Of a DNA stretch of 21,959 bases, positions 150 to 21,959 are shown piece after piece (position 1 is the stretch's first letter; each line of letters begins with the position of its first letter). The translations under genes and the position numbers were made by a program. The notes under the pieces were generated by a model. The model was given only the letters and a program-made list of their open reading frames with translations, had not been told where the DNA came from and searched no databases. Origin of the DNA: Amoebidium appalachense (Eukaryota > Protista > Ichthyosporea); assembly GCA_963693365.1 (NCBI GenBank), contig CAVNZM010000063.1, forward strand, positions 1 through 21,959. The letters run 5' to 3'.

Positions 150-223
150 TGCAGGTTCACTTTCGTCCAAGGGGATGTCCCCCTAGAGGCAACACACGTC
201 CCGGAGTAGTTTTTTATAGACTA

Positions 224-551
224 CAGAAACCGACTTTCCATACCCCCACACACCACACACACATACATCTATATATATCATACACATATACATACAAGCA
301 TACAAGCGTACATATTTTTATACATATGTATACTTATATACACATAATATATATATATATATATATATTTCTTTGTATTCTAATTTTTATTTGTATACAC
401 TGACCTTTTCATATTCTTCTAACCTACTTCCAAAAGGATCATGTAGTGATAGCTACATCGGACTTGGAAGACTACTTCAATGTTCATTTATTATAAATAT
501 ATAAATAAATATTTACAAAAGTGAAGTTCATATGTCTTTTATTTTAGTATA

Positions 552-582
<31 letters not shown>

Positions 583-673
583 GATACCTACATATACAAG
601 AATGATACTGTAACATACGTATACATGTAGGTGTATGGTGTGTGGTGTGTGGGGTATGGAAAGTCGGTTTCTG
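224..673. mobile_element. Non-autonomous Tc1/mariner-type MITE (~450 bp)
   Basis: Terminal inverted repeats of about 40 bp: CAGAAACCGACTTTCCATACCCC(C)ACACACCACAC from 224, with the reverse complement ending at 673. Flanked by TA at 222-223 and 674-675. Interior is AT-rich and non-coding. Confidence 0.8.
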
Positions 674-689
674 TAGCAACTCTTCAACT

Positions 690-1186: not shown

Positions 1187-3054
1187 ATGCTGTACTGCAC
1201 GATGACATCTCTCCTCCATTTCATCAGAAGTAATGGAAAATTGTTTGAAGTACGAAAAAGAAATGGAGAATTCGACGTCGTCGACTGCTTTACCGTATCT
1301 TATAACGGAACGCGCAGCACGGCAACAAAGGCCCGGAAATTGGTGCTGGAGCGGAATCGTGCTCTGTTTGAAAAAGAAACCACGGTCTCGGGTGCACGTG
1401 GCTCCCACTATTATTTTGCCCCTGCGGACACAATCAGCCAAATGTTAATGGCCACCGAGAGCGCCACATCCGCGGAGTTTTTAGAGGCAGACGGCGAGCG
1501 CTTCTTCCGCGCGATAGGCGCCTCTCAGACCCAAGTGGACCAAGTAGTTCAAATGCGCGAAAGAATCGCTCGACGCCGCCCACCCGGCCACCCTTGCGCT
1601 ATCTCGCGGACGGTTATGACGGCAGAGGACAGCGAGCAGGATGTGCCCACACATGATGTCTCTGCACACAACGCGAGTGCGTCGACAGCGGGTAAACAGA
1701 ACCCACTCTTGTTGCCACCCCCCCTGCCTAACTACGAGCAGGATGTACACCACGGTGAGCCTGGCGGCGAGCACAACTACCACTCCATACTGCACGTAGC
1801 GGCGCAGCAGGCAGAAGCGACTGCACTCGCCGCGAAAGTAGCGGGTTTTCAACACGAGGAGTTTAAATTAAAACTCCAACTTGAGCACGACGAGCGCGAG
1901 ATGAAGCGTCGCCACGACGAGAGGATGATGGAACTCCGTATACAAAATACACGCCTCGAGATAGAACTGAGGAGGATGGGAACAAACGAACAGAGGGAAC
2001 AGGAGACGGTGATGGATGGCGAGAGGGGGCATGTGGCGGATATCGTGGATGTGGCGGAGGTCGTGGACGGGGCACACGGGGATGGAGGGACGGGGGCAGA
2101 CGGGGAAATGGTTGAGGCGGACGGGGACAGGGGATGGAGGGACGGGGGCAGACGGGGAAATGGTCGAGGCGGACGGGGCACACGGGGATGGAGGGACGGG
2201 GGCAGACGGGGAAATGGTCGAGGCGGACGGGGGCGGGGAGACCCAAATGCCTGAGGGACACGGGGAGGATCATCCGTTGTGTAACGACTGCGATAACGAG
2301 GAGATGGGTGTAAAGGAGACGGAACACGAACAGGAGAGCACAGTGACAGAGGAACGGCGTGCCGCGCAAGAGGATAAACTGAAACGGCTACAAGATATTA
2401 TCAGCAGTGCCCGAGGGTTCGAGCGGGTCTACCGCGATGAAATTTATGACAACCCCGTCTACGACGAGCGCGGCGTCAACCGCATCCTTGTATTTTATCA
2501 GCAGACACTGGAGAGCCTCATCCTACAGGTCGACGGCGTGCGGGATAGCACGGACACGGATACCGTCCGCGCCAAAGGAAAACGGGTTGTCGACGTGATC
2601 CTGGGGCTTCTCGCCAAGGCCGACGCGCAGCACACAGCACGCCAAAAGCGCCCTGCTTCGGACACCCGCCCCGCCGACACCAGACGTGCTAAGCGCACCA
2701 AGAGGACGCCCACTCACAGGGAGCGGCTAGTTAGCAGATTCTTCGAGCCGGCTCAAGGAATCGGCCCCCTGTGGTGCGGTCTATCTTCTTCGTCACCTCA
2801 GGGACCTGTTCCACAAGGAGGCTAGCAGTGAGAGCAGGACTTTCGCACGAGCGCCTCTGTCTACGGGTGAAGTAGCTAGGTTTTTGGGCAAGCAGGTATC
2901 TGTGTATTTTTGTACTATAGACAGGATGGAGGTGTTGCGTGATGAAAAAGGGGAAGTTTATGCCGTGAGACTCCCTAAGAACTGTTTAGGAAAGCCCGGC
3001 TATCCGCGCCATAAGGCAAGAGGGTACTTTCTCGGGAATCTGGTGTGTGCTTGA
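1187..3054 (+). CDS. Bro-N/KilA-like N-terminal domain + coiled coil + acidic repeat + BAG-like domain + C-terminal helical region; one gene broken by two frameshifts
   Basis: N-terminus VRKRNGEFDVVDCF...SGARGSHYYFAPADTISQMLM...AEFL...FFRAIGASQTQVDQV resembles the Bro-like family of large eukaryotic DNA viruses. The frame shifts at a 2-nt-short repeat unit (2120-2171) into ORF 2016..2825, which contains LESLILQVDGV...VRAKGKRVVDVILGLLAKAD (BAG-like). A third frame is open 2731-3054 (GAVYLLRHLRDLFHKE...EVARFLGKQV...NLVCA*). Confidence 0.6.
2066..2225 (+). repeat. Coding tandem repeat, 3 units (54, 52, 54 bp; DGAHGDGGTGADGEMVEA)
   Basis: Units start at 2066, 2120 and 2172. The middle unit lacks 2 nt, which shifts the reading frame. 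Confidence 0.9.
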
Positions 3055-3188
3055 TAAGGCCAACGGGCTTGGCGAAGTGAAAACGTGGTTGTAACAATGC
3101 ATTAGACACCCCCTTCCGGTCCGGTCTGACCCCTTTGGACCGCAGTCTGGTCCGGTTCGGTCTGAACAGGAGTCCTCGCCCGGCAGAG

Positions 3189-3612
3189 CCCCCCCTCCCC
3201 CCCCCGCCCGTGTGTATGTGCTTTTGTGCCCCCATATCCCCCCCCTCCCCCCCCCCGCCCGTGTGTATGTTCTTTTGTGCCCCCATATCCCCCCCCCTCC
3301 CCCCCCCGCCCGTGTGTATGTTCTTTTGTGCCCCCATATCCCCCCCCCCCTCCCCCCCCGCCCGTGTGTATGTTCTTTTGTGCCCCCATATCCCCCCCTC
3401 CCCCCCCCCGCCCGTGTGTATGTTCTTTTGTGCCCCCATATCCCCCCCCCCCTCCCCCCCCCCGCCCGTGTGTATGTTCTTTTGTGCCCCCATATCCCCC
3501 CCCCCCCTCCCCCACACCCGTGTGTATGTTCTTTTGTGCCCCCATATCCCCCCCCCCCTCCCCCCGCCCGTGTGTATGTTCTTTTGTGCCCCCATATCCC
3601 CACCCCCCTCCC
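3189..3612. repeat. Minisatellite, 8 copies of ~52 bp
   Basis: Unit is CCCGTGTGTATGTTCTTTTGTGCCCCCATAT plus variable poly-C tracts. Confidence 0.95.
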
Positions 3613-6376
<2,764 letters not shown>

Positions 6377-6777
6377 CATACGGATGATAGCGCTATTATA
6401 TATTAGAATGGAAAAGTTGGCACTTTGGAGTTACATTGGGGTTGTGACAGGTGTGTGAGCACCGTAAAGCGGTGCTTCATTGGGTGTAGAAGGAATGCAG
6501 CATTCGATTGGAGAGGGGAATGGCATGCAGCATATGTGTAGAAAGTGCATGTAGCGCCGAACAAGCCGAACAAATCGACCCAATCATCTGGGACCATAGT
6601 ATTCTCTTGCCAATCGAATGCTGGATTCCATTCCTCTCCTCCCACAACCAATGAAGCGCCGGCAGCCCCCTATATAATCGCGGCCCGCGCTGAACAGCCA
6701 GTAACCTTCACTGTACACACAGAACACAGAACACACAACCCCCAAACCCCAAAGCGCCAACTCTTCCACCAGCGACC

Positions 6778-8453
6778 ATGGCTTCCACCTACGCCATCTA
6801 CGAGCGCCTCAACATTGCCGGTGCCAAAGAGGCCGGCTTCCCTCCCATCTCCCCCGAGCTCGAGCGCCTGCTGGGCACCGTGGGCGACGACGTGGTGGCC
6901 AAGGTGCTGCGTTTCCTCGACCCGTTTCTGCTGGACTGCAAGGAGACCATCTCCGGGCGCGCCGTGTATACGCTGCTTGGGTATGGTGACTACAGATTCT
7001 TCGTGAGAGCCATGTTTAAGGGGCAGATGGGGTCACCTGGCTTTGTCCCAGCAGGCAACTACCGTGTTATTGAGATGGAGGTATGTCTCGGAATTCTAAA
7101 GTTTTGAATGAATTCCCGGCACTATGCCGTGAATTCTCTGATTGGCTATGGGGGCATCATGTGACGTCATCACTTTTACGGATCAGAGCGGCAAAGTTTA
7201 GATTGGCTCTAAGGGCATCGTGTGATGTCATCACTTCTCAGCCTCAGGGCTGAAAAGTCATTTCGTCATTTTTGCGTCATCACTTTAGTCTCTACCATAA
7301 CTCAAAAGTCTTGACGTCAAAATTACGTCACCGGTGTCTTGCCAGTCTTGACGTCATCACTTATTTGTTTGGTTTAGAGCTGAAGTGTGCTAACAAACCA
7401 CGCCTTCATTCTACACAGAGCACGGGAGGTCGTCCGGGGCAGGATCATCTGCTCACTGCAAAGGGATTTCGTATGGCGTCTGCTTCCACAAACACCCTGC
7501 TGGGCCAGGCCATGCGTGTGTGGGCCTTTGATGTCGCCGAGGCCTTTGCCCGCCTGGCTGCCAACCGCAAGGACGAGGCCTATGACGCCTTTTGCGTCAC
7601 CCTTACCGCGGCCGAAGCACTTGCTGCCGCTGCCGCTACCGAGCGCGACCAGGCCATCAACGACAAGGGGGCCGCGGATGCCGCTGCAGACGCCGCCAAG
7701 GCCGCCAAGGAGGCCGCGGAGGCCGCCCAGGCCGAGGCGCTCGCCACCCTCGCTGCCGCTCTCGCCCGCGTCAAGCTCGAACCTCTGACCCTCCCGAACC
7801 GCATGCCCCTCACCACCGGCGGCACGTACACGGACAACCATGCGTTCAAGCGCCTGACGCGCGCCTTTGCGTATCTGTGCGTGGACACGCTGTACGGCGA
7901 CGGAGTGCGCTGCGCCAGCACGTACATGGGCATGATCATGGCCACCACGGGCGTGTGCTTTGTGTTCCAGTCGGGGGAGATTTCCAACATCATTGCCACC
8001 ACCGGGCTGCAGAAGGCCATGAAGGAGCGCATCCGGGTGTGGACCGGCGAGGAGCCCAAGTACTCGACCGACATGACCACGCAGCAGCTGTACACCTTTG
8101 TCTACAACTACACGCGCTGGTACGTGGAGTACTGCAAGGCGCCGGTGCTGCTGCGCCAGTCGACCATCAACAACGCGGACACGGGCGCTGCCGAGCACGA
8201 GGTGCACGTCGAGCTGGCGTCGTGGCTGGAGGCCATCAAGGACAAGTTCCCCGACATCGAGCCGCTGGAGCTCGGGCGCACCGTCAGCCTCAACGAGCCG
8301 CTGGTGGAGCGCGGCGAGCAGCTCAAGGGGCAGACCCAGCTGGACGTGTATGTGCAGCGCGGGCGGCTGGGGCGGAAGCGCAAGGTCGCCCGCCTGCAGA
8401 AGCCCGAGGGCCCCGTTGATGTTGTGGTGATTGCGGACAGTGATAGTGAGTGA
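6778..8453 (+). CDS. Two-exon gene (6778-7080, 7419-8453; 445 aa): AntA/AntB antirepressor- or MSV199-like DNA-binding domain, Ala-rich coiled coil, C-terminal NLS and SIM-like motif
   Basis: Kozak accATGg, with TATATAA at ~6671. Splicing gives ISGRAVYTLLGY...GFVPAGNYRVIEME|STGGRPGQDHLLTAKGFRMA...GQAMRVWAFDVAE, which follows the AntA pattern (SARELxxxL...GFxxxxDY...STGGRPxxDYxLT...GxxxRxYF). Strong GC3 bias in exon 2. Confidence 0.8.
7081..7418 (+). other. Spliceosomal intron (338 bp, phase 0)
   Basis: GAG|GTATGT donor, GCTAAC branch site at ~7389, pyrimidine tract and ACACAG| acceptor. It joins the two ORFs in frame and restores a domain. Confidence 0.85.
7138..7360. promoter_or_regulatory. 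Intronic cluster of CRE/ATF (TGACGTCA) and CCAAT motifs
   Basis: TGACGTCA at ~7162, ~7312 and ~7349, plus TGATGTCA, TTGCGTCA and TTACGTCA variants. Duplicated GATTGGCT...GGGCATC.TGTGA.GTCATCACTT module. Confidence 0.55.
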
Positions 8454-8456
8454 AGT

Positions 8457-8525
8457 GTGAGTTGTGTAGCGCTGGTCGATTGGGGGGTGTTAGTGTATAA
8501 GAGTTGTGTAGCGCTTTCGACGGGA

Positions 8526-8567
<42 letters not shown>

Positions 8568-8607
8568 GTGTATAAGAGTTGTGTAGCGCTTTCGACGGGA
8601 GTGTGCG

Positions 8608-8642
<35 letters not shown>

Positions 8643-8732
8643 TAGTGCAAAGCGCTGGAGTTGTGTAGCGCCAGACACTTGGTGTTAGTGCATAGCGCTA
8701 GCGTTGTGTAGCGCCAGACACTTGGTGGTAGC
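8457..8732. repeat. Short repeats GTTGTGTAGCGC (5 copies) interleaved with (GT)n
   Basis: Motif repeated directly after the 8453 stop codon, including two longer duplicated sub-blocks. Confidence 0.75.
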
Positions 8733-9750
<1,018 letters not shown>

Positions 9751-10317
9751 TATCTGCATGAAATTATGTGGGAACATGTATGTCTGTATATATGGGAAAT
9801 AAACAATAAAAATCATGATAACATAGTGGGTTCATATGTGAAGCGCGAATTTACTTGATATCGAACTTGTGCTCTTTGGCTTGAGACTTCAGTGAACATT
9901 CTATTCATATCTGATTGGTTAATTGTGATTGGGTGTCTGCGATTGGTCGAGTATCGATTTCAAAGAAGCCCTTGGTGATGAAATGTTTGATGGGTAAAAG
10001 GTTGTGTTAACTCGATTAAATCAAAGAAGGTTAAACCATCCGAGAAACTGTAGGTACTACGTCAATATTTTGATGTTGCATTTGTAAACATTGAGTGCAT
10101 TAGCGGCTCGGAAATATTTTGAGTCGTTTTGCACTACTCTGGGACTAAGATCACCAAAAAGCCAATCCAGCGTGGCTGCCAATAGAATCCACTCAAATAA
10201 CAAAGTCTGACATCCAATCATATGTCGCGGAATTGCCAAACAAGTATATAAGGTCACATCCACTCGGCCGATGCCATTGCATTCTACAAACACAGATACT
10301 CAAGCAACACAGGCAAA

Positions 10318-11047
10318 ATGTACACGACACATGGCGCTGCGCCTGTCTCATACAGCACCTTCACGTTTCCACCCACCCCACAACCCGACCTGGACATCAT
10401 ACAGAGTACCGACTTCATTCCGCTGACGTCCGACGATTTTGCTGCTTTTGACAACCAACTAGGTGACGGCTCCATGCTCCATGCGCCCACCCCGACGACG
10501 GCTAAGAGCCACGGCCAGCACCACGTCTTCGACTTCGACATGGTCTGCGGCGAGACAATCCCCCCCCTCTCCGGCGCGTGGTGTTCCCGCACGTCTGCAT
10601 CTGCAAGCGGTCTCCTCTCAAGCCCCCACGCTGCCACCCACCACAACCACGCCAGCAACAACATGGTTTGGCCGGCTCAGGTCTGTCGAGAACCAGGATT
10701 CCGATACGAGACAATGGAAGCGCTCGCGCGCTAACATCTCAATGACCAAAAAGCCACCTGGTGAAATCAAAGCCCTCGCCACTGCTGGTGATTGGAGGCG
10801 CCATCTTGCACCCCTGCCTGTTTCACAGATGTTGGGCGAGGCGCTCGACAGACTTAGCCCGTTGTGCCTTATACCGTTCATCAGCTGCACGCTCCCTTTT
10901 GCAGCTAGCAAAGAGCAGCTCTCCTACCTCGACGCTGGTAGCATCTGTGCGCTTCTCGGCTTCAGGGACATCGATGAGATACGCGACCGTCTCGATCAGG
11001 CCAAAATCGCAAACGCCCGTGATGTGCCAGGCACAGAAGCGGTAGGA

Positions 11048-11110
<63 letters not shown>

Positions 11111-11146
11111 AGAAGGCTTCCCACACACACACACACACAAGGCTTC

Positions 11147-11177
<31 letters not shown>

Positions 11178-12563
11178 GGCTTCCACACACACACACACGC
11201 ACACACGCACACACAAGGCTTCCACACACACACACACGCACACACGCACACACAAGGCTTCCACACACACACACACACAAGGCTTCCACACACACACACA
11301 CACACACACGCACACACAAGGCTTCCACACACACACACGCACACACGCACACACAAGGCTTCCACACACACACACACACAAGGCTTCCACACACACACAC
11401 ACACACACACGCACACACAAGGCTTCCACACACACACACACACAAGGCTTCCACACACACGCACACACAAGGCTTCCACACACACGCACACACAAGGCTT
11501 CCACACACACGCACACACAAGGCTTCCACACACACACACACACAAGGCTTCACACACACACACACAAGGCTTCCACACACACGCACACACAAGGCTTCCC
11601 ACACACACACACACACAAGGCTTCACACACGCACACACAAGGCTTCCACCGACACTTTATCAACACCCCTACTAAATGGTGGATCCGGGCACCATAGTGG
11701 TCGTGGCTACGGTGGCGTTTTGTGTGGGCATGTTCTTTCTCAGTGTCCTTGACTATCTCTTCCCCGTGTTCTCGGATCCGATTAAGGGGGACCCACCCCC
11801 GCCATACTCAATCCATGCTGATACTTGGTGATTCCTACAGGGTTCCCCGCACTACTACAAGGAGGGCAACTTCATGCTGGTCTCGCCCGCTGCGTTTCTT
11901 CACTTGACCACCCAGGTCTTGTACGAGTCCCCCCTGGCCCTCGATTTTCTGGGATGGTTTAACAGCGCGCGCAACAAGGAGCTGCACTTGCACGAAACCC
12001 GGCTCTATGAGAAGACCCGCGGCGCGCCCCCTTCCACCACCCCTCTGGATGCCACTCGCCACATTCACGCTACCTTTGTCGGTTTCCTGGTGGCCACACT
12101 CAGCTCGACATCCGTGCTTGACGTCCACCGGCTGGTGACCATCCTTGAAAAGGTCGCAAATGTGCAAGTCACTTCCCGCTTCAAGACCCGCAACATCTGC
12201 GCCCCGCACGCCGAGGCGCTGGTGTTCAAGGTGCTTGCCCAGCGCATCAATATAGACACGGGCGTTTCGATAGCGTCTGCGCTCGACATCAACACGTTGC
12301 ACCTCTACACGTTTCTCTCGCGCGCCCTTGAGGCTCTCGATGTTGACGTACCCCATCCACACGGCGTCCCAGCAGGCAGCACCTACAAGGACCCCCAGCT
12401 GCGCGACCTGAGGAAGCTGGGTCGCTCCCTCGAGAAGGACTTTGCCGGCATACGCCAGTTGCCCCTGGAGCCCAAGTCCTTCTTCTATGCCATGCCGGAG
12501 CGCCCGGTCACCCCGGCCGGACACGAAGTGTGTGCGTGCTTCAGGATGGATCGGAGTCTTTAG
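10318..12563 (+). CDS. Two-exon Bro-N/AntA/MSV199-like DNA-binding protein (exon 1 ends 11041, exon 2 11841-12563); 5' part either frameshifted near 10720-10735 or starting at ATG 10742 (340 aa)
   Basis: Spliced sequence YLDAGSICALLGFRDIDEIRDRL...PGTEA|GSPHYYKEGNFMLVSPAAFLHL...SPLALDFLGWFN parallels the 6778 gene. TATATAA at ~10246, aaaATG at 10318 and several upstream CCAAT boxes. Confidence 0.6.
11050..11649. repeat. Poly-C run followed by about 19 units of AAGGCTTCC(AC)n
   Basis: Seen directly. The last unit continues into unique sequence (AAGGCTTCCACCGAC). Confidence 0.9.
11676..11831 (+). CDS. Putative 51-aa single-pass membrane microprotein with PPxY motif, nested in the intron
   Basis: aaATGg start. 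MVDPGTIVVVATVAFCVGMFFLSVLDYLFPVFSDPIKGDPPPPYSIHADTW* has a ~20-residue hydrophobic stretch followed by PPPPY. Shorter than the ORFs listed in the track. Confidence 0.45.
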   Translation: MVDPGTIVVVATVAFCVGMFFLSVLDYLFPVFSDPIKGDPPPPYSIHADTW

Positions 12564-12852
12564 GTTGGACGGACATGTACGGATGGATGCGTCGCACGAG
12601 TCCTGTGCACACGGGGCAGCGCCGTGCAAGCTTGCACGATTTGGAGTTGTTAGGGCACTTGTCCTGGGATACATACTTTTTTTTAGCTGGCTTGTGTGTG
12701 CTTGTACTGGTGGGTTTGGGCTTTGCTCCGTTTAGCTTCGGCATGGTAAGCGCAGCCGGTTTGTGTGTGCTTGTACTGGTGGGTTTGTTCTTTGCTCCGT
12801 TTAGCTTCGGCATGGTAAGCGCAGCCGGTTTGTGATTTTGTGTTTGCGCCAT
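12541..12852 (-). CDS. Small basic protein (103 aa) with a 23-aa tandem repeat and a C-terminal Cys cluster
   Basis: gccATGg at 12852, with TATATAAA about 30 bp upstream. HKPAALTMPKLNGAKxKPTSTST occurs twice (69-bp in-frame repeat), then CPNNSKSCKLARRCPVC. Overlaps the 3' end of the convergent gene by 23 bp. Confidence 0.55.
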   Translation of the reverse strand: MAQTQNHKPAALTMPKLNGAKNKPTSTSTHKPAALTMPKLNGAKPKPTSTSTHKPAKKKYVSQDKCPNNSKSCKLARRCPVCTGLVRRIHPYMSVQPKDSDPS

Positions 12853-13332
12853 GGCCTCTTCTGTTGGGATTTCAGTCTTTATATACACCTACATAATCAT
12901 CAACAATAGCCGCTAAACATTGCGCGTTGTCTCGCGCGTGAGCTTTTGCAACCTTGTTTGTATTTGACAGGCCCGATGGCCCATGCCTACTTATCAAATG
13001 TGTACTAATCTTATCATGTCACGTGATATAAAGCTGACCAATCAGATCGTTTGGCATCTGATAATCACCCTTTGATCGCTGACAGAAAGGGGGGTTTATC
13101 GATCTGGTCTGATTAAATCGCATTCCGTGGCGCGGATTGCCCTGTATATTGTGTTTCAATAAACCCCACCTTTTTTGTCGCTTGCGGGAGATTTCCATGA
13201 CGCGATGGCATTTTTTAATTGAAGGTTGGGTGACAGGCAAACGGTGTCACATGGACATCAACTCTCACCTCGATCGGTTTCGTTTGTTCACCTTTCGATC
13301 ACATGACTTCTCTTCACCCACCCTTGCAAAAC

Positions 13333-14507
13333 ATGAACGCCCCACTCCCCCACCCACTCCCCCCTCCCCTCCCTTCACCCCCAAAGCCCGTTGAAGGGTG
13401 TGAATGCACTCGTTGCACAGACCTTCGCGTCTGTGACGGCTCTTCCGACGCGTGTGCCGTCTGCGGTTACCACAACACCCCGCATCTCAAGACGAAATCA
13501 AAACACTTCCCCGCCATCACCCATTTTGTTTGTGGCTGCGACCACTGCCTGACCCTTGCGGCAACAAGTGTTCCCCGTCTGTGTAGTTCGTGCTTCACCT
13601 CGCTGTCGACTCACTCTTCTCCCGTGCCCGGCCTCCCTGGCTGCTGCGACACATGCCGTAGCGGCACCCACTGTGCCTTCCGCATCGCCCGTCGCACCCA
13701 CAACTATATCAACACACAGCGTCGGCGGGCTTGGAATGCCGTCTACTCCCTGCTGACCACCATACCCGTCACGTGCACATGCATACCCGACATCCCAGAC
13801 CCCCTCCCCACCGCCCACCGCATGGCCCCGCACAACCCTGCATGTGCCATGTGGCACGTTGGCTTCCCCGCTCCCGTGCCCGAATGTGCCTCCCCCGTCT
13901 GTGCATGCACACACTACCGCAATGCGGAGGCCTTTCTCGCTCACATGTGTGCGGGTCGCCTGCGCCACCTTGTCACTGACATGTACACCCCCGCCCTCGA
14001 ATACTGCCCCTTGTGCAGCTGCCGCCGCCGCCCAGCTTCGCCCGGCACACCCCAGGCCTACGTGGCCGCCGACCTCCCCCTCCGCTTCCATTCCTGTCCT
14101 TGTCCACACTGCACGTCTTTGCACGCCCTGCCACCGTGCTCGTGTGTGCCGACTGCCACACACTCGTCCTGCAGCATCAGCATGGTGTGGACGGCTGCGC
14201 GAGGAGGCTTGTTGGCCGTAGACGACAGCTGCGACCGGGTTTGGCCCCCCGAAGACTTGTTCCTGCCCCACAAGCCCACACAAACACCCATTTTTCTCCC
14301 CAACCCCCACCATGCACATCTCTTCCACCAAGCCCATACCCATCCCCAAGCCCGCTCACACCGCCTGTTAAAGATACTGTATGCAAGAATTTAGAAGTTG
14401 AAGACCCCAACTCCCCCCAGGGTGAGTGGTTGTGGATGCTTTTCCCCTCTGGGTGGCAAAATGTGTGGGTGCCGGCCACCCCGGGCACCCCGCAAAATAA
14501 ATCGTGA
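13333..14507 (+). CDS. Cys/His-rich putative multi-zinc-binding protein; C-terminus probably continues through a frameshift near 14270
   Basis: aaacATGa at 13333. Many CxC/CxxC motifs (CECTRC, CAVC, CGCDHC, CSSC, CCDTC, CPLCSC, CPCPHC). The ORF ends at 14394, while another frame gives a plausible tail ...NLEVEDPNSPQGEWLWMLFPSGWQNVWVP to 14507. Confidence 0.55.
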
Positions 14508-14530
14508 AGACTTGGCATCTGTACATCTGT

Positions 14531-14750
14531 ACACACACACACACACCAAACACACACACCACACACACACACACACACACACCACACACACACACCACAC
14601 ACATGCACACCACACACACACACACCACACACACACCACACACACACACACACCACACACACACACCACACACACCACACACACACAGTCACCACACACA
14701 CACACACACACACACACCACACACACACACCACACACGCATACGCACATG
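14531..14750. repeat. Imperfect (CA)n microsatellite
   Basis: Seen directly. Confidence 0.9.
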
Positions 14751-15070
14751 CATGTTTCAGATACGTCCAAGTGTGGTTATGTATTGACTTTTGTGTTTAT
14801 TCAATCTTGCTGTCGTTAAGTCTCGCTTACATGTTAGGGTTCAGATACATAGATGATGTTTGCACCAAATCGTGCTTATGAGAAGACATCGTAAGAAACA
14901 AACGATGGGATATTTGCGCTGGTTTGCACATTTGCACATGTATGGGTTGGGGCATATCATAGCATATCACATTGTGGTACTTGTACACACTGCCCTGTCT
15001 ATATTTCTCTATGGGGATAGCATTCCTCTCTCCCATACACACTCACCCACCCAGCAAACACCCCACACCA

Positions 15071-16093
15071 CTATCCTGGTCGAATGCACACCCACACCTC
15101 ATTCACCGCAACGGTGTTTTCTCCATTGCCTCCTATGACTACACGCAATGGCTTCTTGTTGTCCTTAAATTGCAGTTGCCACAGCTGGTTGGAGGTGGCC
15201 TCCTCGGATGTGATGTGTATTTTAGAACCCTTGTTTGTTACTTGCACTATGACATGCTTCATGTTGTAGTAGATGTATGGGGGGTGCGGAGATCGATCGA
15301 CAGACACCCAGATCTCGCACTGCTCTCAGGCTCCCGCTGTCTCCGACTGGGGGCTGCTCGTGGCTACCACCTGCTCCGTGAAGGCCACCTGGTCGTCGAC
15401 GTCGACGGAACTGTGGTCCTCGGACACGAGCGGCTCGCGTGCTGCTTCGCACGCCGGGCTGCTTGGGGGCGCTGCTGCTTCGCACGCCTGGCTGCTTGGG
15501 GGCGCTGCTGCTTTCTCCTTATCCGCTGCCTCCGTGGTCTCTTCCGTGTCCATATCCGGAAAAGGGAGGGGCCGCCAGGGCGCTTTGGGTTCGGGGTTGA
15601 CTGCCACTGGTAGGCGCAGGGACGTGGGTTTTTTGCAGGCCCCCAGCTCGTTTTGGCGTAAGTGGCGCCCACGTCTATTTGGATTCACCCCTGCCTTCCA
15701 ATAAAATGCATCCCGTTGCTTTTGTACCACGTCGCTGGCCGCAGCACCTGAAGTCTTGCACGGGAGAATCCTGCGTAGCGGAATCTTGCCCGGTGGTGGT
15801 GGCCATGTTGTCTGCAACGGGTACACTCGCACGTCCTTGCTGCACAGGGGCGGTGCGTGCACAGCTGCAGAAGGGGGTTGAGAAGGCTGTGCATGCACGC
15901 AGTCGTCTTTGGGCGGGATTGCGCGTGCAGCTTTTGTGTTGGCGGGGAACGAGTGCATGTTGGCTGGGGGCGAGTGCATGTCGAATTCGCCGAAGACGGG
16001 AACGCCCATGAGCGCTGCCTCGCTGGCCGGTGTTGTCGCTTTGAAGAGCTTGTCGCGCAGGCGCCACAGCTTAACGTTTGGCTTGTGGTTCAT
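15071..16093 (-). pseudogene. Hypothetical ~340-codon gene with one in-frame TGA (15328-15326); Pro-rich low-complexity N-terminus, beta-rich C-terminal domain
   Basis: ORFs 15326..16093 and 15071..15307 share a frame: ...ETAGA*EQCEIWVSVDRSPHPPYIYYNMKHVIVQV... Contains a 33-bp internal duplication (AAAPPSSxACE twice). Confidence 0.5.
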
Positions 16094-16664
16094 AGCTGCA
16101 TGTTTGCAAGACTGGCAGCATCCGAAGCCGTGATGGGGTTATATGGGTCCTATAGCCAATTAGACTGGTCCCAGTGGCTTTGCCAGGGTGCGCAATTGTC
16201 CTTCGGCGCAGTAGATTTGCAACTGAAATGAAACGAAATGAATAATCTATAGAATAATCAACTGTTGTGAAAGCCACACAACGAGAGGAACTCGGTCAAA
16301 TTGATTTAAACAAAACAGACATCCTATTGTATATAGGGTTTTTGTTTCAGGGATCTCGATTCGGTTGTAACCCTGACCGCGAGTCACATTTCCGAACTCT
16401 GAGTAGAAACTAAAACAACAGCCTGTTCAATAGGAAAACAATGGCCAAAATGTTCTTATTAAACGGTTTTATATATTTCGGTTTTGTTTTCAAATTGGCG
16501 TGCTTGGAGTGTTGTAAATCACGACGTTCACATCACATCAATACTGTATCATAACCAGTCAATTTTAGAATAACACAAATGCTGTAACTGAGCCAATCAG
16601 ACGCTGCATGCCTTGGCTACAGACCCTTCGGTCATCTTCCACAGGAATACAAGACCCTCTATCC

Positions 16665-16760
16665 GATTGGTCATCACGCTGATTGGTCAAAATTCCAAAC
16701 GTCTGATTGGTCGGTACGTCTGATTGGTCAACGCGTCTGATTGGTCAGCGCGCTATTGGT
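16665..16760. promoter_or_regulatory. Tandem CCAAT-box array (GATTGGTC x5 plus ATTGG)
   Basis: Repeats spaced about 16-24 bp apart, immediately left of the Copia insertion site. Probably the original promoter of the F-box gene and/or the divergent 16093 gene. Confidence 0.6.
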
Positions 16761-16777
16761 GGCCGGCTCTCAGGGAG

Positions 16778-17692
16778 TGTTAAATTCTATAAGTATTTAG
16801 GAATGAAAGCAGAGACACAGTGGTGCAGTGTGAAAACACCACAGACACACACAACAACAAAACACGGAACGATCGGAGCAGTGTACACAACAGACATCAA
16901 TGTTTAGAAGACTGAATGAATTTATTCTGATCTTCGAATAAATACCTGAAATTCCTCTAAGTCCAATCCATACATGATTTCCGACCAGTCGGAAATCAGA
17001 TCCATCTCTAATAGAAACCAATCACTAAGAACCAATTGCTTTCAGAGAGATCCGGTACGCGGAGGCGTACACGATAGGACACAGACACTAGTTAAGATCA
17101 ACTGTGTCATCATCAAGGAAGTTCTAACCTATGACAACTGCAAAACTCAGACATATCACACTTAACCTTGATGATTGGTTAAAGCCCGGCAACACATGAA
17201 AACTAAAGTGAATTAATGAAGTCTAAACACACATGCTATTCTAAGTGTAGCCTAAGTGTGTTACCGTCAATGAACACGTATTAAGTAACACAAATCTACC
17301 TAACATATATTAGTAGAAAAGAAATACGATTATACACATGAAGACAAGGAGAGAAAGAAAAGAAAATAAGGAAGGAGAAAGAGGAAGGAAAAGAGGCACA
17401 GATCAACAAACAAGATAGTAATAGCATAACTATAACAGAGATATTTATGTACACACGAACATGTACACGTCTCTCCCTGAGTGGGTGGATCCGTGTACAC
17501 ACATATAAATATTCTAATCGATATTACAATACACGAAAAGCCGATACAACACGATTACAAGTATACAAGCATATCGGAGATCGATGCTACACTTTACATA
17601 ATAGGAGTGTGGCATTTACACTAAGCATATGAACTGAAACATAACACAAACTGAGAAGATCTTACCATATGTAAATACTACGTATTACAACA
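16778..17692 (-). repeat. 3' LTR (915 bp)
   Basis: Runs TGTTAAA...TACAACA on the + strand and is a direct repeat of ~18790-19568. Confidence 0.9.
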
Positions 17693-18073
17693 TCCCCACT
17701 TAAGACTTTGAAGTTTGTGTTATCATATCCCCACTGAACTAGTGAAATCTCCCCACTTGAGAACAGAAACGAAAAAAAAAATTAAAGTGTGTACTTTTCC
17801 GGGGGGGGGGGGGGGGGGGGGGGGGAGGGGGGGGGGGGGGGGAAAGGGGGGGGGGGGATAAGGGGGGGGAGGGGGGGGGGGGGGCAACAACAGCAAAGGA
17901 AGAAAACAACCAAGGAAAAAAAAAAATATGCAGGTGAAGGCATATATATATATTAACGGGAGCCAGCCGTGGAAACATTAACCTATGTTTGTGACTCAGT
18001 GGGACTGGGAGTCGGCCAGTATTCGCAAAGGTGGCTAGCCTCAGGTGTATATGTGTTGTGCTAACGAGAACCC

Positions 18074-18420
18074 TTAAAGTGGGCAAACCCCACTTAAGGC
18101 AAAAAAAAAAAAAATACATATACAGAATCGTAGTAGTAGACGTTCCAACTGGGAAGCAGTGTAGAGGAAGCTGCTGTCCAGGGCCCCAGGTGTAGTAGAA
18201 GACCACCGATGATCACTGCACAAGGTCGGGCACACAGAGTCGATCACGGTGAGTGAATGGCTGGGACCCGGCAGTGACTTGGTAAGGATGTCAGCCAAGT
18301 TGTTGGCGACGAGTTGAGACAACATCCCCACTCAGGCTGGGGGGGAGGATAGGGGATGGGGGGTATCGAGGACGAAACGGTAGAAGGACAACGGGGGTCA
18401 CGGATTTGGATGCAGTGTGT
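18074..18420 (-). pseudogene. pol: Copia pol remnant (RNase H C-terminus)
   Basis: CIQIRDP... followed by LVANNLADILTKSLPGP, matching the Copia ADxLTK motif. Heavily frameshifted. Confidence 0.75.
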
Positions 18421-18789
18421 CGAGGGTAGCCACAGTGTAGGGGACGGTGGAGGGAGATGACCAAGGAGGAGTAGATGTCGTAGTTTGGAATCGTGAGGGG
18501 GCGTCGAGGGTGCTTGCTGCTCGGGGTGATGGGAAAGGCGAAGGGAGGGGGGTAGGTCTAGGAATTTGGGTTGGGAGAGGGAGGAGGCAGGTAGGGAGGA
18601 GGAGGAGGGGCGGAAGGGGGGGGGAAGGCAGCACAGCAGCTGGGGGGAGACTGGCAGATGCGCGGGGAAGGGGGAACAGCTGAGGGGTATGTGCCGTGAG
18701 AGTGGTGGTAGCTGGGAAGGGAGGGGGAAGGAGGAGGGAGGAGAGGGAGGAAGGGAGGGGGCAAGCAGCGGAGGGGAGGGGAGTCCAGC

Positions 18790-19568
18790 ACACAACAACA
18801 AAAAGAAGCGACAAAAAGACATCAATAGAGCGACGATAAATACTGAAATTCCTCTAAGTCCAATCCATACATGATCCACAAATAGATCATCTCTAAGAAC
18901 CAATCACTAAGAAAATTTTTCAGAGAGATCGGTACGCGGAGGCGTACACGATAGGACACAGACACTAGTTAAGATCAACTCGTGTCATCACAGAAGTTAA
19001 CCAGACAACTGCAAAGACCAGACATATCACACTTAACCTTGATGATTGGTTAAAGCCCGGCAACACATGAAAACTAAAGTGAATTAATGAAGTCTAAACA
19101 CACATGCTATTCTAAGTGTAGCCTAAGTGTGTTACCGTCCAATGAACACGTATTAAGTAACACAAATCTACCTAACATATATTAGTAGAAAAGAAATACG
19201 ATTATACACATGAAGACAAGGAGAGAAAGAAAAGAAAATAAGGAAGGAGAAAGAGGAAGGAAAAGAGAGCACAGATCAACAAACAAGATAGTAATAGCAT
19301 AACTATAACCAGAGATATTTATGTACACACGAACATGTACACGTCTCTCCCTGAGTGGGTGGATCCGTGTACACACATATAAATATTCTAATCGATATTA
19401 CAATACACGATTAAAGCCGATACAACACGATTACAAGTATACAAGCATATCGGAGATCGATGCTACACTTTACATAATAGGAGTGTGGCATTTACACTAA
19501 GCATATGAACTGAAACATAACACAAACTGAGAAGATCTTACCATATGTAAATACTACGTATTACAACA
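18790..19568 (-). repeat. 5' LTR (left boundary degraded)
   Basis: Near-identical to 17050-17692 over ~18930-19568 and increasingly deletion-ridden leftwards. No PBS recognisable. Confidence 0.85.
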
Positions 19569-19637
19569 GGGAGGGGTATACCACAGCTCAGCTTTCAAAC
19601 TTCACTCTCCAAACGAACTCATGGCGCGTTCATCACA

Positions 19638-21104
19638 ATGGGCGCCGATCAGTCCACCCTTTCTCCCAGCGCGCAACAGCTGGTCTTGGGCAACCACTAC
19701 CTGCTTCTGTACATCTGCTCCTTCCTGGATGCACGCTCACGTCGCAGCATTGCGCTCACCTGCCGAGCGCTTCGCCACGTACACGAGGCAGAGCTGGCGC
19801 GCCCGAACAGCCACATGCGCGTCGACCTATCCAAGGGTCCGAAGTCAATCGAGTTTGCCACGCGCGTCCGTGCCACCCACGTCGTTGCCACCACTGCTGA
19901 CTACAAGCGCCTTGCCGAGCTTCCGCCCATGCGGTTCGTTCTCCACATGGTTCTTGATGAGTACCGGGACCTGGCCAACCACCATGCAAAGGCTGCCCAT
20001 AACCACCGCTACACCAGCACGGAGCCCATCTACCCAGACCTGTTTCCCAACCTCAAGGTCGCAGAGGTCAACTCCTTCAAGTGCCACACCCCCCTTGTCG
20101 CCCCCTTCGCGTTGCTGGGCCGCGCTATCCTGAACCTGACGAGTCTGACCCTTGCCTTCTCTGCCACTCCCAGGCCCACACCTGGTGTAGTCATGGATCT
20201 CACTGCGCTCGAAAACCTGGCCCATCTGCACGTCCACCTGTGCACGCGTGTGAACCCCTCTAACATCTACGCCATCCCCAGCACGGCGCTGCATGTGCCT
20301 GCGGGCCTTGTGAAACTGCATCTGGACTACCGCTTCCGCTCCATGTGCGGCCACCAGTACGGCTACGGCAGCGGCGGCTCCGCTCCCGGTATCCACAACA
20401 TCCACAACATCGAGTCCTGCGTCAACATGCGCAATGTGCACGTGTGCGTCTTTGGCATGGTGGTGTTCGACACCATCAATCGCGCCCACCGTGTCGAGCT
20501 GCTGTGCTCACAGGCCCGCGGCACGCTGCGCGGTTGCACCAGCGTCCAGATCGGCAAGGAGGTGCGCGACATCGAGATCACCACCACCGGGGACAGCGCC
20601 AGTGACTACCCAGGCAACCGGCTGCTTGTGGCCGGCGCCCGCGAGTTCGAGTGCTTCCATCCTGCCCACAACTGGGCGCTGCAGGACGTCCATGTGCTGG
20701 AGCTCATGCACGTGCCCCACAGCCCGCGCGCGCTGGTGGCCATCGCGCAGGCCGTCAACCTGCGCTCGCTGACCGTCACGGCGCCCATGTTCAGCGACAA
20801 GGAGCTCGTCTACCACATGCCCCCGACCATCGAGATGGTCAACTTCAGGCACGTGCGCCTGGTCGTGCTCGCCGACCCCAGCGGGCTCATCCGCCCGCTT
20901 GTGTTTTCCAGCGACTGCGACCTGGTCCTCTACAACCACTGGCTCCTCCGTGCGGCCGGGTTCCTGATGGACTCGAAGTGGGACCGGTTCATGACACGGC
21001 TGCTGCACATCACGCAGTGCGACATGCCGTGGGCGCTCGGGCGGAAGCTGCAGTACATGGGCGACAAGTCGTACAGGCACCTGCCGTTCCCCGAGGGGGT
21101 GTAG
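19638..21104 (+). CDS. F-box protein with LRR-like C-terminal repeats (488 aa, intronless)
   Basis: acaATGg start. LVLGNHYLLLYICSFLDARSRRSIALTCRALRHV is F-box-like. FPNLKVAEV, LNLTSLTL, LENLAHLHV, PAGLVKLHL and VNLRSLTV are LRR-like. Strong GC3 bias. Confidence 0.8.
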   Translation: MGADQSTLSPSAQQLVLGNHYLLLYICSFLDARSRRSIALTCRALRHVHEAELARPNSHMRVDLSKGPKSIEFATRVRATHVVATTADYKRLAELPPMRFVLHMVLDEYRDLANHHAKAAHNHRYTSTEPIYPDLFPNLKVAEVNSFKCHTPLVAPFALLGRAILNLTSLTLAFSATPRPTPGVVMDLTALENLAHLHVHLCTRVNPSNIYAIPSTALHVPAGLVKLHLDYRFRSMCGHQYGYGSGGSAPGIHNIHNIESCVNMRNVHVCVFGMVVFDTINRAHRVELLCSQARGTLRGCTSVQIGKEVRDIEITTTGDSASDYPGNRLLVAGAREFECFHPAHNWALQDVHVLELMHVPHSPRALVAIAQAVNLRSLTVTAPMFSDKELVYHMPPTIEMVNFRHVRLVVLADPSGLIRPLVFSSDCDLVLYNHWLLRAAGFLMDSKWDRFMTRLLHITQCDMPWALGRKLQYMGDKSYRHLPFPEGV

Positions 21105-21120
21105 GGGGGGGGGGGGCTGT

Positions 21121-21959
21121 TTAGAGCCCTAGACACTTGGTCATGTGATTGTAGTCGAATCTGTGGGCCTTGATGGTCACCTTGTTTGCACTTAGTTTCT
21201 TTGTACTTACTGGTTTCATCATGAATATCTGCCGTAGAACTTTGCCAAATACACATAGGTTCATGTGAACCTCCATGTCTGACCCTTGTTGTCTCACCCA
21301 TTCGGAATACAGTGCATAGAGAGATGATGTTTTTACGGGGGATCCCGGGGGGAACTTGTGCCTGTTGTTTTCGTCTTTCAAAAATTCAATAAAAAACTGC
21401 TTGACCAGCTCGTATCCCTTGCTGTGTCGCAGATTGGAGTCTTTTGTCCACGGCCTTGTTATCCACTCGCCTATCCTATCGTCAATAAGTATGCGCACCC
21501 CCCGTGACTTCCCGTCGTCCAAGGCAGACTTGTATGCACGCCACGGGCAGTGGCCGTACAAATAAAGTGTTGGGCGGTGGTTGGGGTATGTGCTCTGTCT
21601 TGCAAGGATTGTTTGTAGGCCGTCTACGAATCGGGTGATGTGGACCACCAGTATCACGTCGGTTCCCGTCAGCACACAGTCCTCCCCGAGCATTGTGGTT
21701 TCCGGTTGGTATAAAAGGCGTGTTACGATTTCAGACCCATCACTTCCAGTCATCTTAGAGTAGTGAACAAAAATATTGGAGGGTGGGCCTTTTATAGGTT
21801 TTGGGTGGGTGGTGTAGGTGGAGGTGCTTGCAAGCACCTGTCGTTCCCCGAGGAGTGTGGGGGGGGGAGGGGCTGGGGGGGGTGCATTTTTATTATCTAG
21901 CATATACATAATGGTCGACTTCAACAACATGTCTGTACCATTGGTACCAGAGCGCACTC
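21121..21959 (-). CDS. 5'-partial protein: degenerate PD-(D/E)XK-like domain + D5-C/RFX-like winged helix
   Basis: LGEDCVLTGTDVILV...GLQTILARQSTYPNHRPTLYLYG resembles the GxIDxLTxxExIEVK...GQxLxY...YPxHxxxxxLFG family without the catalytic residues. VKTSSLYALYSEWVRQQG...MNLCVFGKVLRQIF resembles the winged helix of D5 primase C-termini or RFX. Confidence 0.6.
   Translation of the reverse strand, partial: VRSGTNGTDMLLKSTIMYMLDNKNAPPPAPPPPTLLGERQVLASTSTYTTHPKPIKGPPSNIFVHYSKMTGSDGSEIVTRLLYQPETTMLGEDCVLTGTDVILVVHITRFVDGLQTILARQSTYPNHRPTLYLYGHCPWRAYKSALDDGKSRGVRILIDDRIGEWITRPWTKDSNLRHSKGYELVKQFFIEFLKDENNRHKFPPGSPVKTSSLYALYSEWVRQQGSDMEVHMNLCVFGKVLRQIFMMKPVSTKKLSANKVTIKAHRFDYNHMTKCLGL

What the first reader, a model, noticed from the sequence alone, without database searches (positions are those of the whole stretch)
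1187..21959. Cluster of virus-type regulatory genes with host-style introns and promoters: candidate intronised endogenous virus or giant mobile element
Seen: about 8 compact genes in 22 kb with no housekeeping gene, mostly with CCAAT/TATA promoters, two with GT-AG introns, several with basic NLS-like patches. Known: Bro-N, KilA-N, AntA and MSV199-type domains, F-box proteins and D5-type winged helices are typical accessory genes of large DNA viruses and phages, and Bro/AntA domains are rare in ordinary eukaryotic genes. Inference: this is part of an integrated, nucleus-transcribed large DNA element that uses host Pol II and the spliceosome, possibly of an undescribed lineage. No hallmark gene is in the window.
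Basis: partly seen in the sequence, partly recalled or inferred. Interest (0 to 1): 0.85.

Follow-up and report, generated by a model that had tools for sequence, protein, structure and literature searches.

The report
Multi-copy, spliced virus-like gene block
This stretch holds seven virus-style genes, two of them with predicted host-type introns, and is likely one ageing copy of a large virus-derived DNA element that appears to sit in tens of copies in a microbial eukaryote's genome and would need the host nucleus to be read.

Summary
The observation largely holds. I find seven genes (A-G), not eight. Gene B's predicted GT-AG intron splits a phage-type AntA domain: the junction ranks 1 of 2,378 in-frame joins against an AntA profile. 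Gene G is a degenerate restriction-nuclease-like domain, as in giant-virus KilA-N proteins, plus a D5-like winged helix. F is F-box-like. Bro-N, KilA-N and MSV199 were not recovered. CCAAT boxes are enriched upstream. Homologues of B and G lie on what appears to be one 183-kb contig of a Daphnia assembly, and the B homologue seems to keep the intron at the same place with the same CCAAT/TGACGTCA boxes. Public runs under three organism labels hold the block; depth hints at about 40-50 copies, B is under purifying selection, and a 2.8-kb LTR element splitting F's promoter is absent from other copies in 4 of 4 runs. No capsid, polymerase or integrase gene is in view, splicing is not shown in RNA, and the host is unidentified (an Amoebidium-like protist is a guess). 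Best reading: accessory block of an endogenous large DNA virus; a Plavaka-type giant repeat is the main rival. Known kind, with an inherited intron and high copy number as the new twist.

The parts
1187..2825 (+). Gene A: N-terminal globular domain, coiled coil, then a C-terminal BAG-like helical domain; the reading frame changes inside a 54-bp tandem repeat (2065-2232), so it is in two pieces (1187-2254 and a frame ending at 2825)
   Evidence: ORFs; repeat; BAG E 0.041, under cut-off; N-terminal model pLDDT 54 gave no fold match
3189..6374 (.). Tandem arrays: 51-bp unit x8.3 (3189-3615) and 223-bp CA-rich unit x12.3 (3632-6332)
6435..6777 (+). Gene B promoter: six CCAAT/ATTGG boxes and TATATAAT at -107
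6778..7080 (+). Gene B exon 1 (101 aa; first half of AntA-like domain)
   Evidence: 48% (46/96) to P0001; profile
7081..7418 (+). Predicted phase-0 intron (GTATGT ... GCTAAC ... CACAG) with 3 TGACGTCA and 2 ATTGG boxes
   Evidence: junction ranks 1 of 2,378 joins; not seen spliced
7419..8453 (+). Gene B exon 2: rest of AntA-like domain, Ala-rich coil, conserved uncharacterised C-terminal domain, GRKRKVAR basic patch; spliced product 445 aa
   Evidence: 20 synonymous of 33 coding variants
10318..12563 (+). Gene C, predicted three exons (10318-10680, 10829-11041, 11841-12563; 432 aa); intron 2 holds the C-run and 25-bp CA-rich array; promoter has six CCAAT boxes and TATATAAG at -73
   Evidence: no homologue for exon 3; Bro-N profile negative
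13303..14394 (+). Gene D: Cys/His-rich ORF (32 Cys, 7 CxxC), possible zinc binder
   Evidence: no family hit
15326..16093 (-). Gene E: 255-aa low-complexity ORF
   Evidence: variants 8 synonymous of 19, p 0.064
16430..16777 (+). CCAAT cluster (8 boxes within 350 nt of F's start when the LTR element is absent), now cut off from F's TATA box
   Evidence: empty site in 4 of 4 runs
16778..19568 (-). Internally deleted LTR retrotransposon (TG...CA ends, 5-bp GGGAG duplication, LTRs 95% alike, polypurine tract, copia-like RNase H remnant at 18074-18331)
   Evidence: joint 16770->19567 in 4 of 4 runs; copia call rests on a recalled motif, no Pfam hit
19638..21104 (+). Gene F: 488 aa, N-terminal F-box-like domain, repeat-like remainder
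   Evidence: F-box-like E 2e-4, 21.5 bits vs cut-off 24.3; no homologue
21121..21930 (-). Gene G: degenerate PD-(D/E)XK-like domain plus D5/RFX/MCM-type winged helix; start and promoter at the window edge

Best explanation
The window is likely an accessory-gene block of a large DNA virus that has integrated, probably tens of times, into the chromosomes of a microbial eukaryote, and this copy carries signs of decay. Inferred working: the element's DNA is read in the nucleus by host RNA polymerase II, recruited through CCAAT (NF-Y-type) and TGACGTCA (CREB/ATF-type) boxes and TATA boxes; genes B and C are spliced by the host spliceosome; B (AntA-like, basic patch) and G (likely inactive nuclease fold plus winged helix) would act as DNA-binding regulators of the element, F as an SCF ubiquitin-ligase adaptor and A as an Hsp70 co-chaperone-like factor. 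The B intron and its enhancer-like boxes are inferred to be inherited from the element's ancestor rather than gained after this insertion. Shown: gene anatomy, promoter-box enrichment, AntA match across the junction, homologue pair, empty LTR site in other copies, purifying selection on B. Inferred: viral identity, copy number, splicing, transcription, protein functions, host.
For: AntA profile (44 phage domains): spliced B 15.0 bits, exon 1 -0.3, exon 2 4.0, best of 2,000 shuffles 7.3; predicted junction 1 of 2,378 joins. G model matches Tetraselmis virus 1 (E 1.3e-4), FirrV-1 A34 and C-terminal domains of HaV, moumouvirus, mimivirus KilA-N proteins (rmsd 1.2-1.6 over 64-72 columns) and an MCM winged helix (Z 6.5, rmsd 5.0, 97 aligned). 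The only named homologues of B and G (GHT06_003815, GHT06_003768) each list one 183,011-bp contig. P0001 matches both B exons at 48%, with a 117-aa insert at the junction enriched for words left by TGACGTCA/ATTGG boxes (0 and 6 of 20,000 shuffles; none in the other 357 aa), then an off-frame match to exon 2 (69 vs max 60 in 2,000 shuffles). In run X11 shared stretches of B, E, F lie 39-49 times deeper than contigs identical to the window's own B intron. Empty LTR site in 4 of 4 runs. B variants 20 synonymous, 13 not, no stops (p 1.3e-5).
Against: No capsid, polymerase, ATPase, integrase or terminal repeat in the window, and no whole genome to scan. No relative in viral contigs, metagenomes (36, 61). 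Bro-N not recovered. AntA score is modest and the profile seeds were picked through a weak hit to exon 2. F-box, D5 and BAG are under Pfam cut-offs. G model is middling (pLDDT 59) and Z 6.5 is not decisive. Depth of contigs is stated by the tool to be no copy number. Published Amoebidium GEVEs are described as mostly intronless and divergent from each other (PMC11244446 sections 7, 8), which fits 2 of 7 spliced genes and about 99% identical copies less well than the giant-repeat rival. The homologue's intron is read from a protein model only.
Confidence: 0.58

Rival explanations
1. The block is cargo of a non-viral giant transposon or giant repeat (Plavaka-associated type, or another tyrosine-recombinase element) that picked up virus-type regulators and multiplies by transposition or tandem amplification.
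For: [quoted passage not shown]
Against: No transposase or recombinase in the window; the two homologues are 47 locus tags apart on a 183-kb contig, more than a 50-kb repeat would easily span; G's closest folds are giant-virus proteins.
Confidence: 0.27
2. The depth excess comes from an episomal or replicating nuclear virus (mirusvirus-like or latent NCLDV) in the culture; the window is one integrated or assembled derivative.
For: High, even depth across B, E, F, G in several runs; mirusviruses carry GT-AG introns with WCTAAC branch points and occur as episome plus integrant (PMC12768974 passages).
Against: Many discrete variant classes at different depths fit several fixed copies; the window copy carries a very high-depth LTR family, a MITE and microsatellite arrays typical of chromosomal DNA.
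Confidence: 0.1
3. These are ordinary lineage-specific host genes, or long-domesticated viral genes, in a segmental duplication.
For: Host-type promoters, introns, poly(A) signals; purifying selection on B.
Against: No named eukaryotic family for any of 7 genes; phage AntA and giant-virus domains; multi-copy depth; five of seven genes without a predicted intron.
Confidence: 0.05

Closest known systems
Giant endogenous viral elements (GEVEs) of Amoebidium appalachense, Mamonoviridae-related (Sarre et al. 2024, PMC11244446)
   Same: Gene-rich, intron-poor blocks with transcription-factor-like genes, secondary transposon insertions, many insertions per genome, shared between isolates in part.
   Different: Described as mostly intronless and mutually divergent; here 2 of 7 genes are predicted spliced and copies are near-identical. 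No marker gene here to place it; host not established. The window may already lie inside one of their catalogued regions.
Plavaka-associated giant repeats of Amoebidium (same paper)
   Same: Repetitive, intron-poor genes with few database hits.
   Different: No Plavaka transposase or tyrosine recombinase in the window; virus-type domains present; homologous block seems longer than 50 kb.
Punuivirus latency module, Chlamydomonas reinhardtii GEVE (PMC13692296)
   Same: Virus genes with GT-AG introns and host-like regulation (61 of 506 genes), read as functional rather than as erosion.
   Different: Single intact 617-kb insertion in a green alga with shown expression and virions; none of that is shown here; CCAAT and TATA are not mentioned in its main text.
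Teratorn of medaka (PMC5601938)
   Same: Works like it if the depth hint holds: a large virus-derived element in 30-40 near-identical copies with intact genes.
   Different: Teratorn is a piggyBac-alloherpesvirus fusion in a fish; no transposase, herpesvirus gene or terminal repeat here.
Intron-rich mirusviruses (PMC12768974)
   Same: GT-AG introns, CTAAC branch point, predicted nuclear transcription.
   Different: No HK97 capsid or other mirusvirus gene; long (148-799 bp) introns rather than a peak near 80 bp.

Membership tests
Endogenous Nucleocytoviricota (GEVE) | Core genes (double jelly-roll capsid, family B polymerase, A32 ATPase, VLTF3, D5 primase-helicase) in the element | not testable with these tools
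   None in the 22-kb window; no genome held; no flanking loci found
Endogenous Nucleocytoviricota (GEVE) | Accessory genes whose closest relatives are giant-virus proteins | tested here: inconclusive
   G fold matches giant-virus proteins; no sequence homologue in viral contigs for B or G
Endogenous Nucleocytoviricota (GEVE) | Chromosomal integration with host junctions | tested here: inconclusive
   Host-type LTR element inserted in this copy only; no virus-host junction in the window
Plavaka-associated giant repeat | Flanking Plavaka transposase and tyrosine recombinase genes | not testable with these tools
   Absent from the window; flanks unavailable
Plavaka-associated giant repeat | Repetitive, intron-poor gene cluster | tested here: met
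   5 of 7 genes without predicted intron; many variant classes and high depth
Adintovirus / Polinton-like virus | About 30-kb element with protein-primed polymerase, capsids and terminal repeats | tested here: inconclusive
   About 14 kb of non-repeat DNA without any such gene makes it unlikely; ends not in view
Mirusviricota | HK97 capsid, terminase, portal | not testable with these tools
   None in the window; flanks unavailable
AntA/AntB antirepressor domain (PF08346), gene B | Profile match over the whole domain | tested here: met
   Own profile from 44 PF08346-bearing phage domains, positions 15-99 matched, 15.0 bits vs 7.3 best shuffle; Pfam's own cut-off could not be applied to the spliced product
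Bro-N (PF02498), genes A and C | Profile match | tested here: inconclusive
   Own profile from 21 phage Bro-N domains gave no score above shuffles; profile is narrow and the A model was poor
KilA-N / MSV199 | Pfam match | tested here: inconclusive
   No hit on unspliced pieces; spliced products not scanned against Pfam
F-box (PF00646/PF12937), gene F | Score above Pfam cut-off | tested here: inconclusive
   21.5 vs 24.3 and 17.2 vs 20.5 bits, N-terminal position as expected
Active PD-(D/E)XK nuclease, gene G | Acidic and Lys catalytic residues | tested here: not met
   Homologues P0004/P0006 show D and ExK; G has other residues in those columns

The most novel reading that the evidence does not exclude
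A Teratorn-like giant element outside animals: a large DNA virus lineage that multiplies to 40-50 near-identical chromosomal copies in a unicellular relative of animals, whose regulator genes depend on host Pol II and the spliceosome by descent, with an intronic CCAAT/CRE enhancer kept across relatives that are only 48% identical in protein.
Probability: 0.25. Interest if true: 0.8.

Novelty: new variant of a known kind. Interest (0 to 1): 0.5.

Why it matters
Introns in endogenous giant viruses were long read as decay after integration; the punuivirus preprint (PMC13692296) argues they can be functional. An intron kept at one position, with the same enhancer-like boxes, in two elements at 48% protein identity would be independent support from another host group. 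If tens of near-identical copies are real, integration is part of this element's life cycle and not an accident, against the stochastic model proposed for Amoebidium GEVEs. It also shows why such genes are missed: the AntA domain is invisible to Pfam until the intron is removed, and the public model of the homologue reads through it.

Tried and rejected
No whole genome held. Pfam, PHROGs and NCBIfam on unspliced ORFs: nothing above a curated cut-off. No related loci: viral contigs 0 in 4 scans, metagenome contigs 0 in 2, GTDB 0 in 1. No homologue for F (53, 88) or C exon 3. Phage tblastn with C exon 3 start and A N-terminus: chance hits only. Atlas with P0002: no usable hit. Gene A N-terminal model uninformative; G against PDB by Foldseek no E under 0.001. 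Bro-N resemblance of A and C, seen by eye, failed the profile test. Direct protein-level similarity between the window intron and the P0001 insert is not significant (87 of 1,000 resamples reach it). No RNA holder listed; no spliced joint in 4 of 4 runs laid, X23 laid nothing, X17 and X18 leave 7100-7454 uncovered: no evidence either way. No CpG depletion in six of the coding regions (o/e 0.8-1.1; G 0.66), so no methylation signal. Earlier findings: none by place or sequence. No paper names the homologues' accession prefix; 'Daphnia sinensis' plus virus gave nothing relevant.

Full report
Anatomy. Six-frame ORFs, splice signals and repeats give seven genes: A 1187-2825 (two frames, changing inside a 54-bp repeat), B 6778-8453 (one predicted intron), C 10318-12563 (two predicted introns), D 13303-14394, E 16093-15326, F 19638-21104, G 21930-21121. 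Coding DNA is 8,417 of 21,959 bases; tandem arrays and an LTR element take about 7,860. No tRNA or Rfam match. No family passes a curated cut-off in Pfam or NCBIfam on unspliced pieces, and PHROGs gives only two weak hits.

Promoters. CCAAT/ATTGG occurs 26 times in six 450-nt upstream regions (A-E, and F read without the LTR element) against a null mean of 7.9, maximum 19, 0 of 2,000 resamples; 4 times in 7,846 coding bases. B, C and F have a TATA-like box 63-107 nt upstream. All 5 TGACGTCA sites lie in the B intron (3) or at 9605-9623 (2). Reading these as NF-Y and CREB/ATF sites is established knowledge, not tested.

Gene B. The start of exon 2 gave 12 weak phage matches, 4 annotated as antirepressors; three of these carry PF08346 AntA. 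A profile from 44 distinct of 83 AntA domains scores spliced B at 15.0 bits over profile positions 15-99, exon 1 at -0.3, exon 2 at 4.0, and the best of 2,000 shuffles at 7.3. The predicted GT-AG junction ranks 1 of 2,378 in-frame joins. The seeds were chosen through exon 2, so the exon-1 gain and the junction rank are the independent part. Of 40 variant rows shown (141 more not shown), 33 fall in the coding region (7 upstream rows dropped): 20 synonymous, 13 not, no stop; expected synonymous share 0.25, p 1.3e-5. For E, 19 rows gave 8 synonymous, p 0.064; F and G had 3 rows each, too few.

Homologues. Exon 2 found 2 proteins among 7,995 candidates: P0001, GHT06_003815 of a Daphnia sinensis assembly, and an unnamed ENA protein. 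G found 2 among 1.84 billion representatives; one cluster includes GHT06_003768. Both named proteins list one contig of 183,011 bp and have close accession numbers, so I infer the same contig. P0001 matches exon 1 (46 of 96) and exon 2 (48% over 237). Between them it has a 117-aa repetitive insert, near the 338-bp intron in size. After removing its internal duplicate, the insert holds 4 words that a TGACGTCA box and 3 that an ATTGG box would leave when translated (0 and 6 of 20,000 shuffles; none in the other 357 aa), and it is followed by a match to another frame of the window's exon 2 (69 vs maximum 60 in 2,000 shuffles). I infer that the public model reads through an intron at the same place with the same boxes. 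Against: insert and window intron are not alike as protein, and the DNA was not seen.

Gene G, F, A, C. A model of G (pLDDT 59) matches a Tetraselmis virus 1 protein (E 1.3e-4, the only one of at least 500 under 0.001), FirrV-1 A34, and proteins named KilA-N from HaV, moumouvirus, mimivirus and megavirus over 64-93 columns. Against solved structures residues 61-164 resemble restriction-nuclease folds (best Z 6.6, rmsd 2.7, 86 aligned) and 175-278 an MCM winged helix (Z 6.5, rmsd 5.0, 97 aligned); both are middling. Pox_D5 scores E 0.004, under cut-off. The catalytic-type residues of P0004/P0006 are not kept in G. F has an F-box-like N-terminus just under cut-off and no homologue. A ends in a weak BAG match. 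A Bro-N profile from 21 distinct of 35 domains found nothing in A or C.

Copies and the LTR element. Of 24 runs listed, 20 hold part of the F/G stretch, 16 at least half, under three organism labels, none on record as RNA. Bases 16778-19568 are a deleted LTR retrotransposon with TG...CA ends and a GGGAG duplication; the copia label rests on a recalled RNase H motif. A joint skipping it is seen in 4 of 4 runs, and it separates eight CCAAT boxes from F's TATA box. In X11, contigs identical to the window's B intron lie at depth about 25, while shared stretches of B, E and F and the summed empty-site joints lie 39-49 times deeper. The tool warns that depth is no copy number; I take it as a hint of tens of copies amplified as a block, with this copy alone carrying the insertion. 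No spliced joint was seen, which tests nothing, as no RNA run covered the gene.

Host. Not established. GC-rich genes (GC3 0.57-0.85), CA microsatellites and CTAAC branch points suggest a protist or fungus. [quoted passage not shown]

Mechanism. Most likely (0.58) an accessory block of an endogenous large DNA virus, transcribed by host Pol II and spliced in the nucleus, encoding DNA-binding regulators (B, G), a ubiquitin-ligase adaptor (F) and a co-chaperone-like protein (A), with the present copy decaying. Rivals: non-viral giant repeat (0.27), episomal virus (0.10), host genes (0.05). No hallmark gene could be reached: no genome, and no loci in seven collection scans.

Literature seen. PMC11244446: outline, sections 6-10, passages, part 1 of 2 of supplement 1 (legends; 4 of 18 pages are pictures) and searches of both supplements; the Pfam list of its Fig. 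2D and Fig. S4 are pictures I could not see and may already show these genes. PMC13692296: passages and conclusions. PMC12768974, PMC5601938, PMC12344493: passages. 10.1101/2024.01.18.576163: term search with no hits. Searches listed no paper on this element or on a conserved intron of this kind. The distribution of AntA, Bro-N and KilA-N in large DNA viruses is recalled, not read here.

Verdict. A real feature, of a known kind (integrated virus-like giant element with some host-style genes). New aspects are the apparently inherited, enhancer-laden intron inside a phage-type domain and the apparent high copy number. Interest 0.5.

Noticed in passing
window 221-676: MITE-like element: 33-bp terminal inverted repeats (97% alike), AT-rich interior, TA next to both ends.
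   Followed up: partly
window 7093-7160 vs 8824-8891 and 9139-9206: The 5' part of the B intron is 81% like an inverted sequence in a 315-bp duplication downstream of B; the intron may contain or derive from a small repeat.
   Followed up: no
window 8925-8955, 9240-9270 and 9726-9756: Perfect 31-bp inverted repeat bracketing a 270-bp CA run and two TGACGTCA boxes; possible small TIR element.
   Followed up: no
window 6745-6957: Exon 1 of B draws much higher summed depth and loose ends than the rest of the gene in X11, X17, X18, suggesting paralogues that share only the N-terminus.
   Followed up: no
window 20033-20533: A second, about 90% identical version of gene F appears at roughly a tenth of the main depth in X1, X5 and X11: a second subtype.
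   Followed up: no
window 17735: One X17 contig ends in a poly-T run beside the LTR end; X17's kind is only guessed as DNA.
   Followed up: no
P0001 (KAI9549629.1): The public gene model seems to read through an intron and run off-frame; the 183-kb contig may not be Daphnia DNA.
   Followed up: partly
window 3632-6332: Each 223-bp satellite unit carries a perfect donor-like CAGGTAAGT.
   Followed up: no
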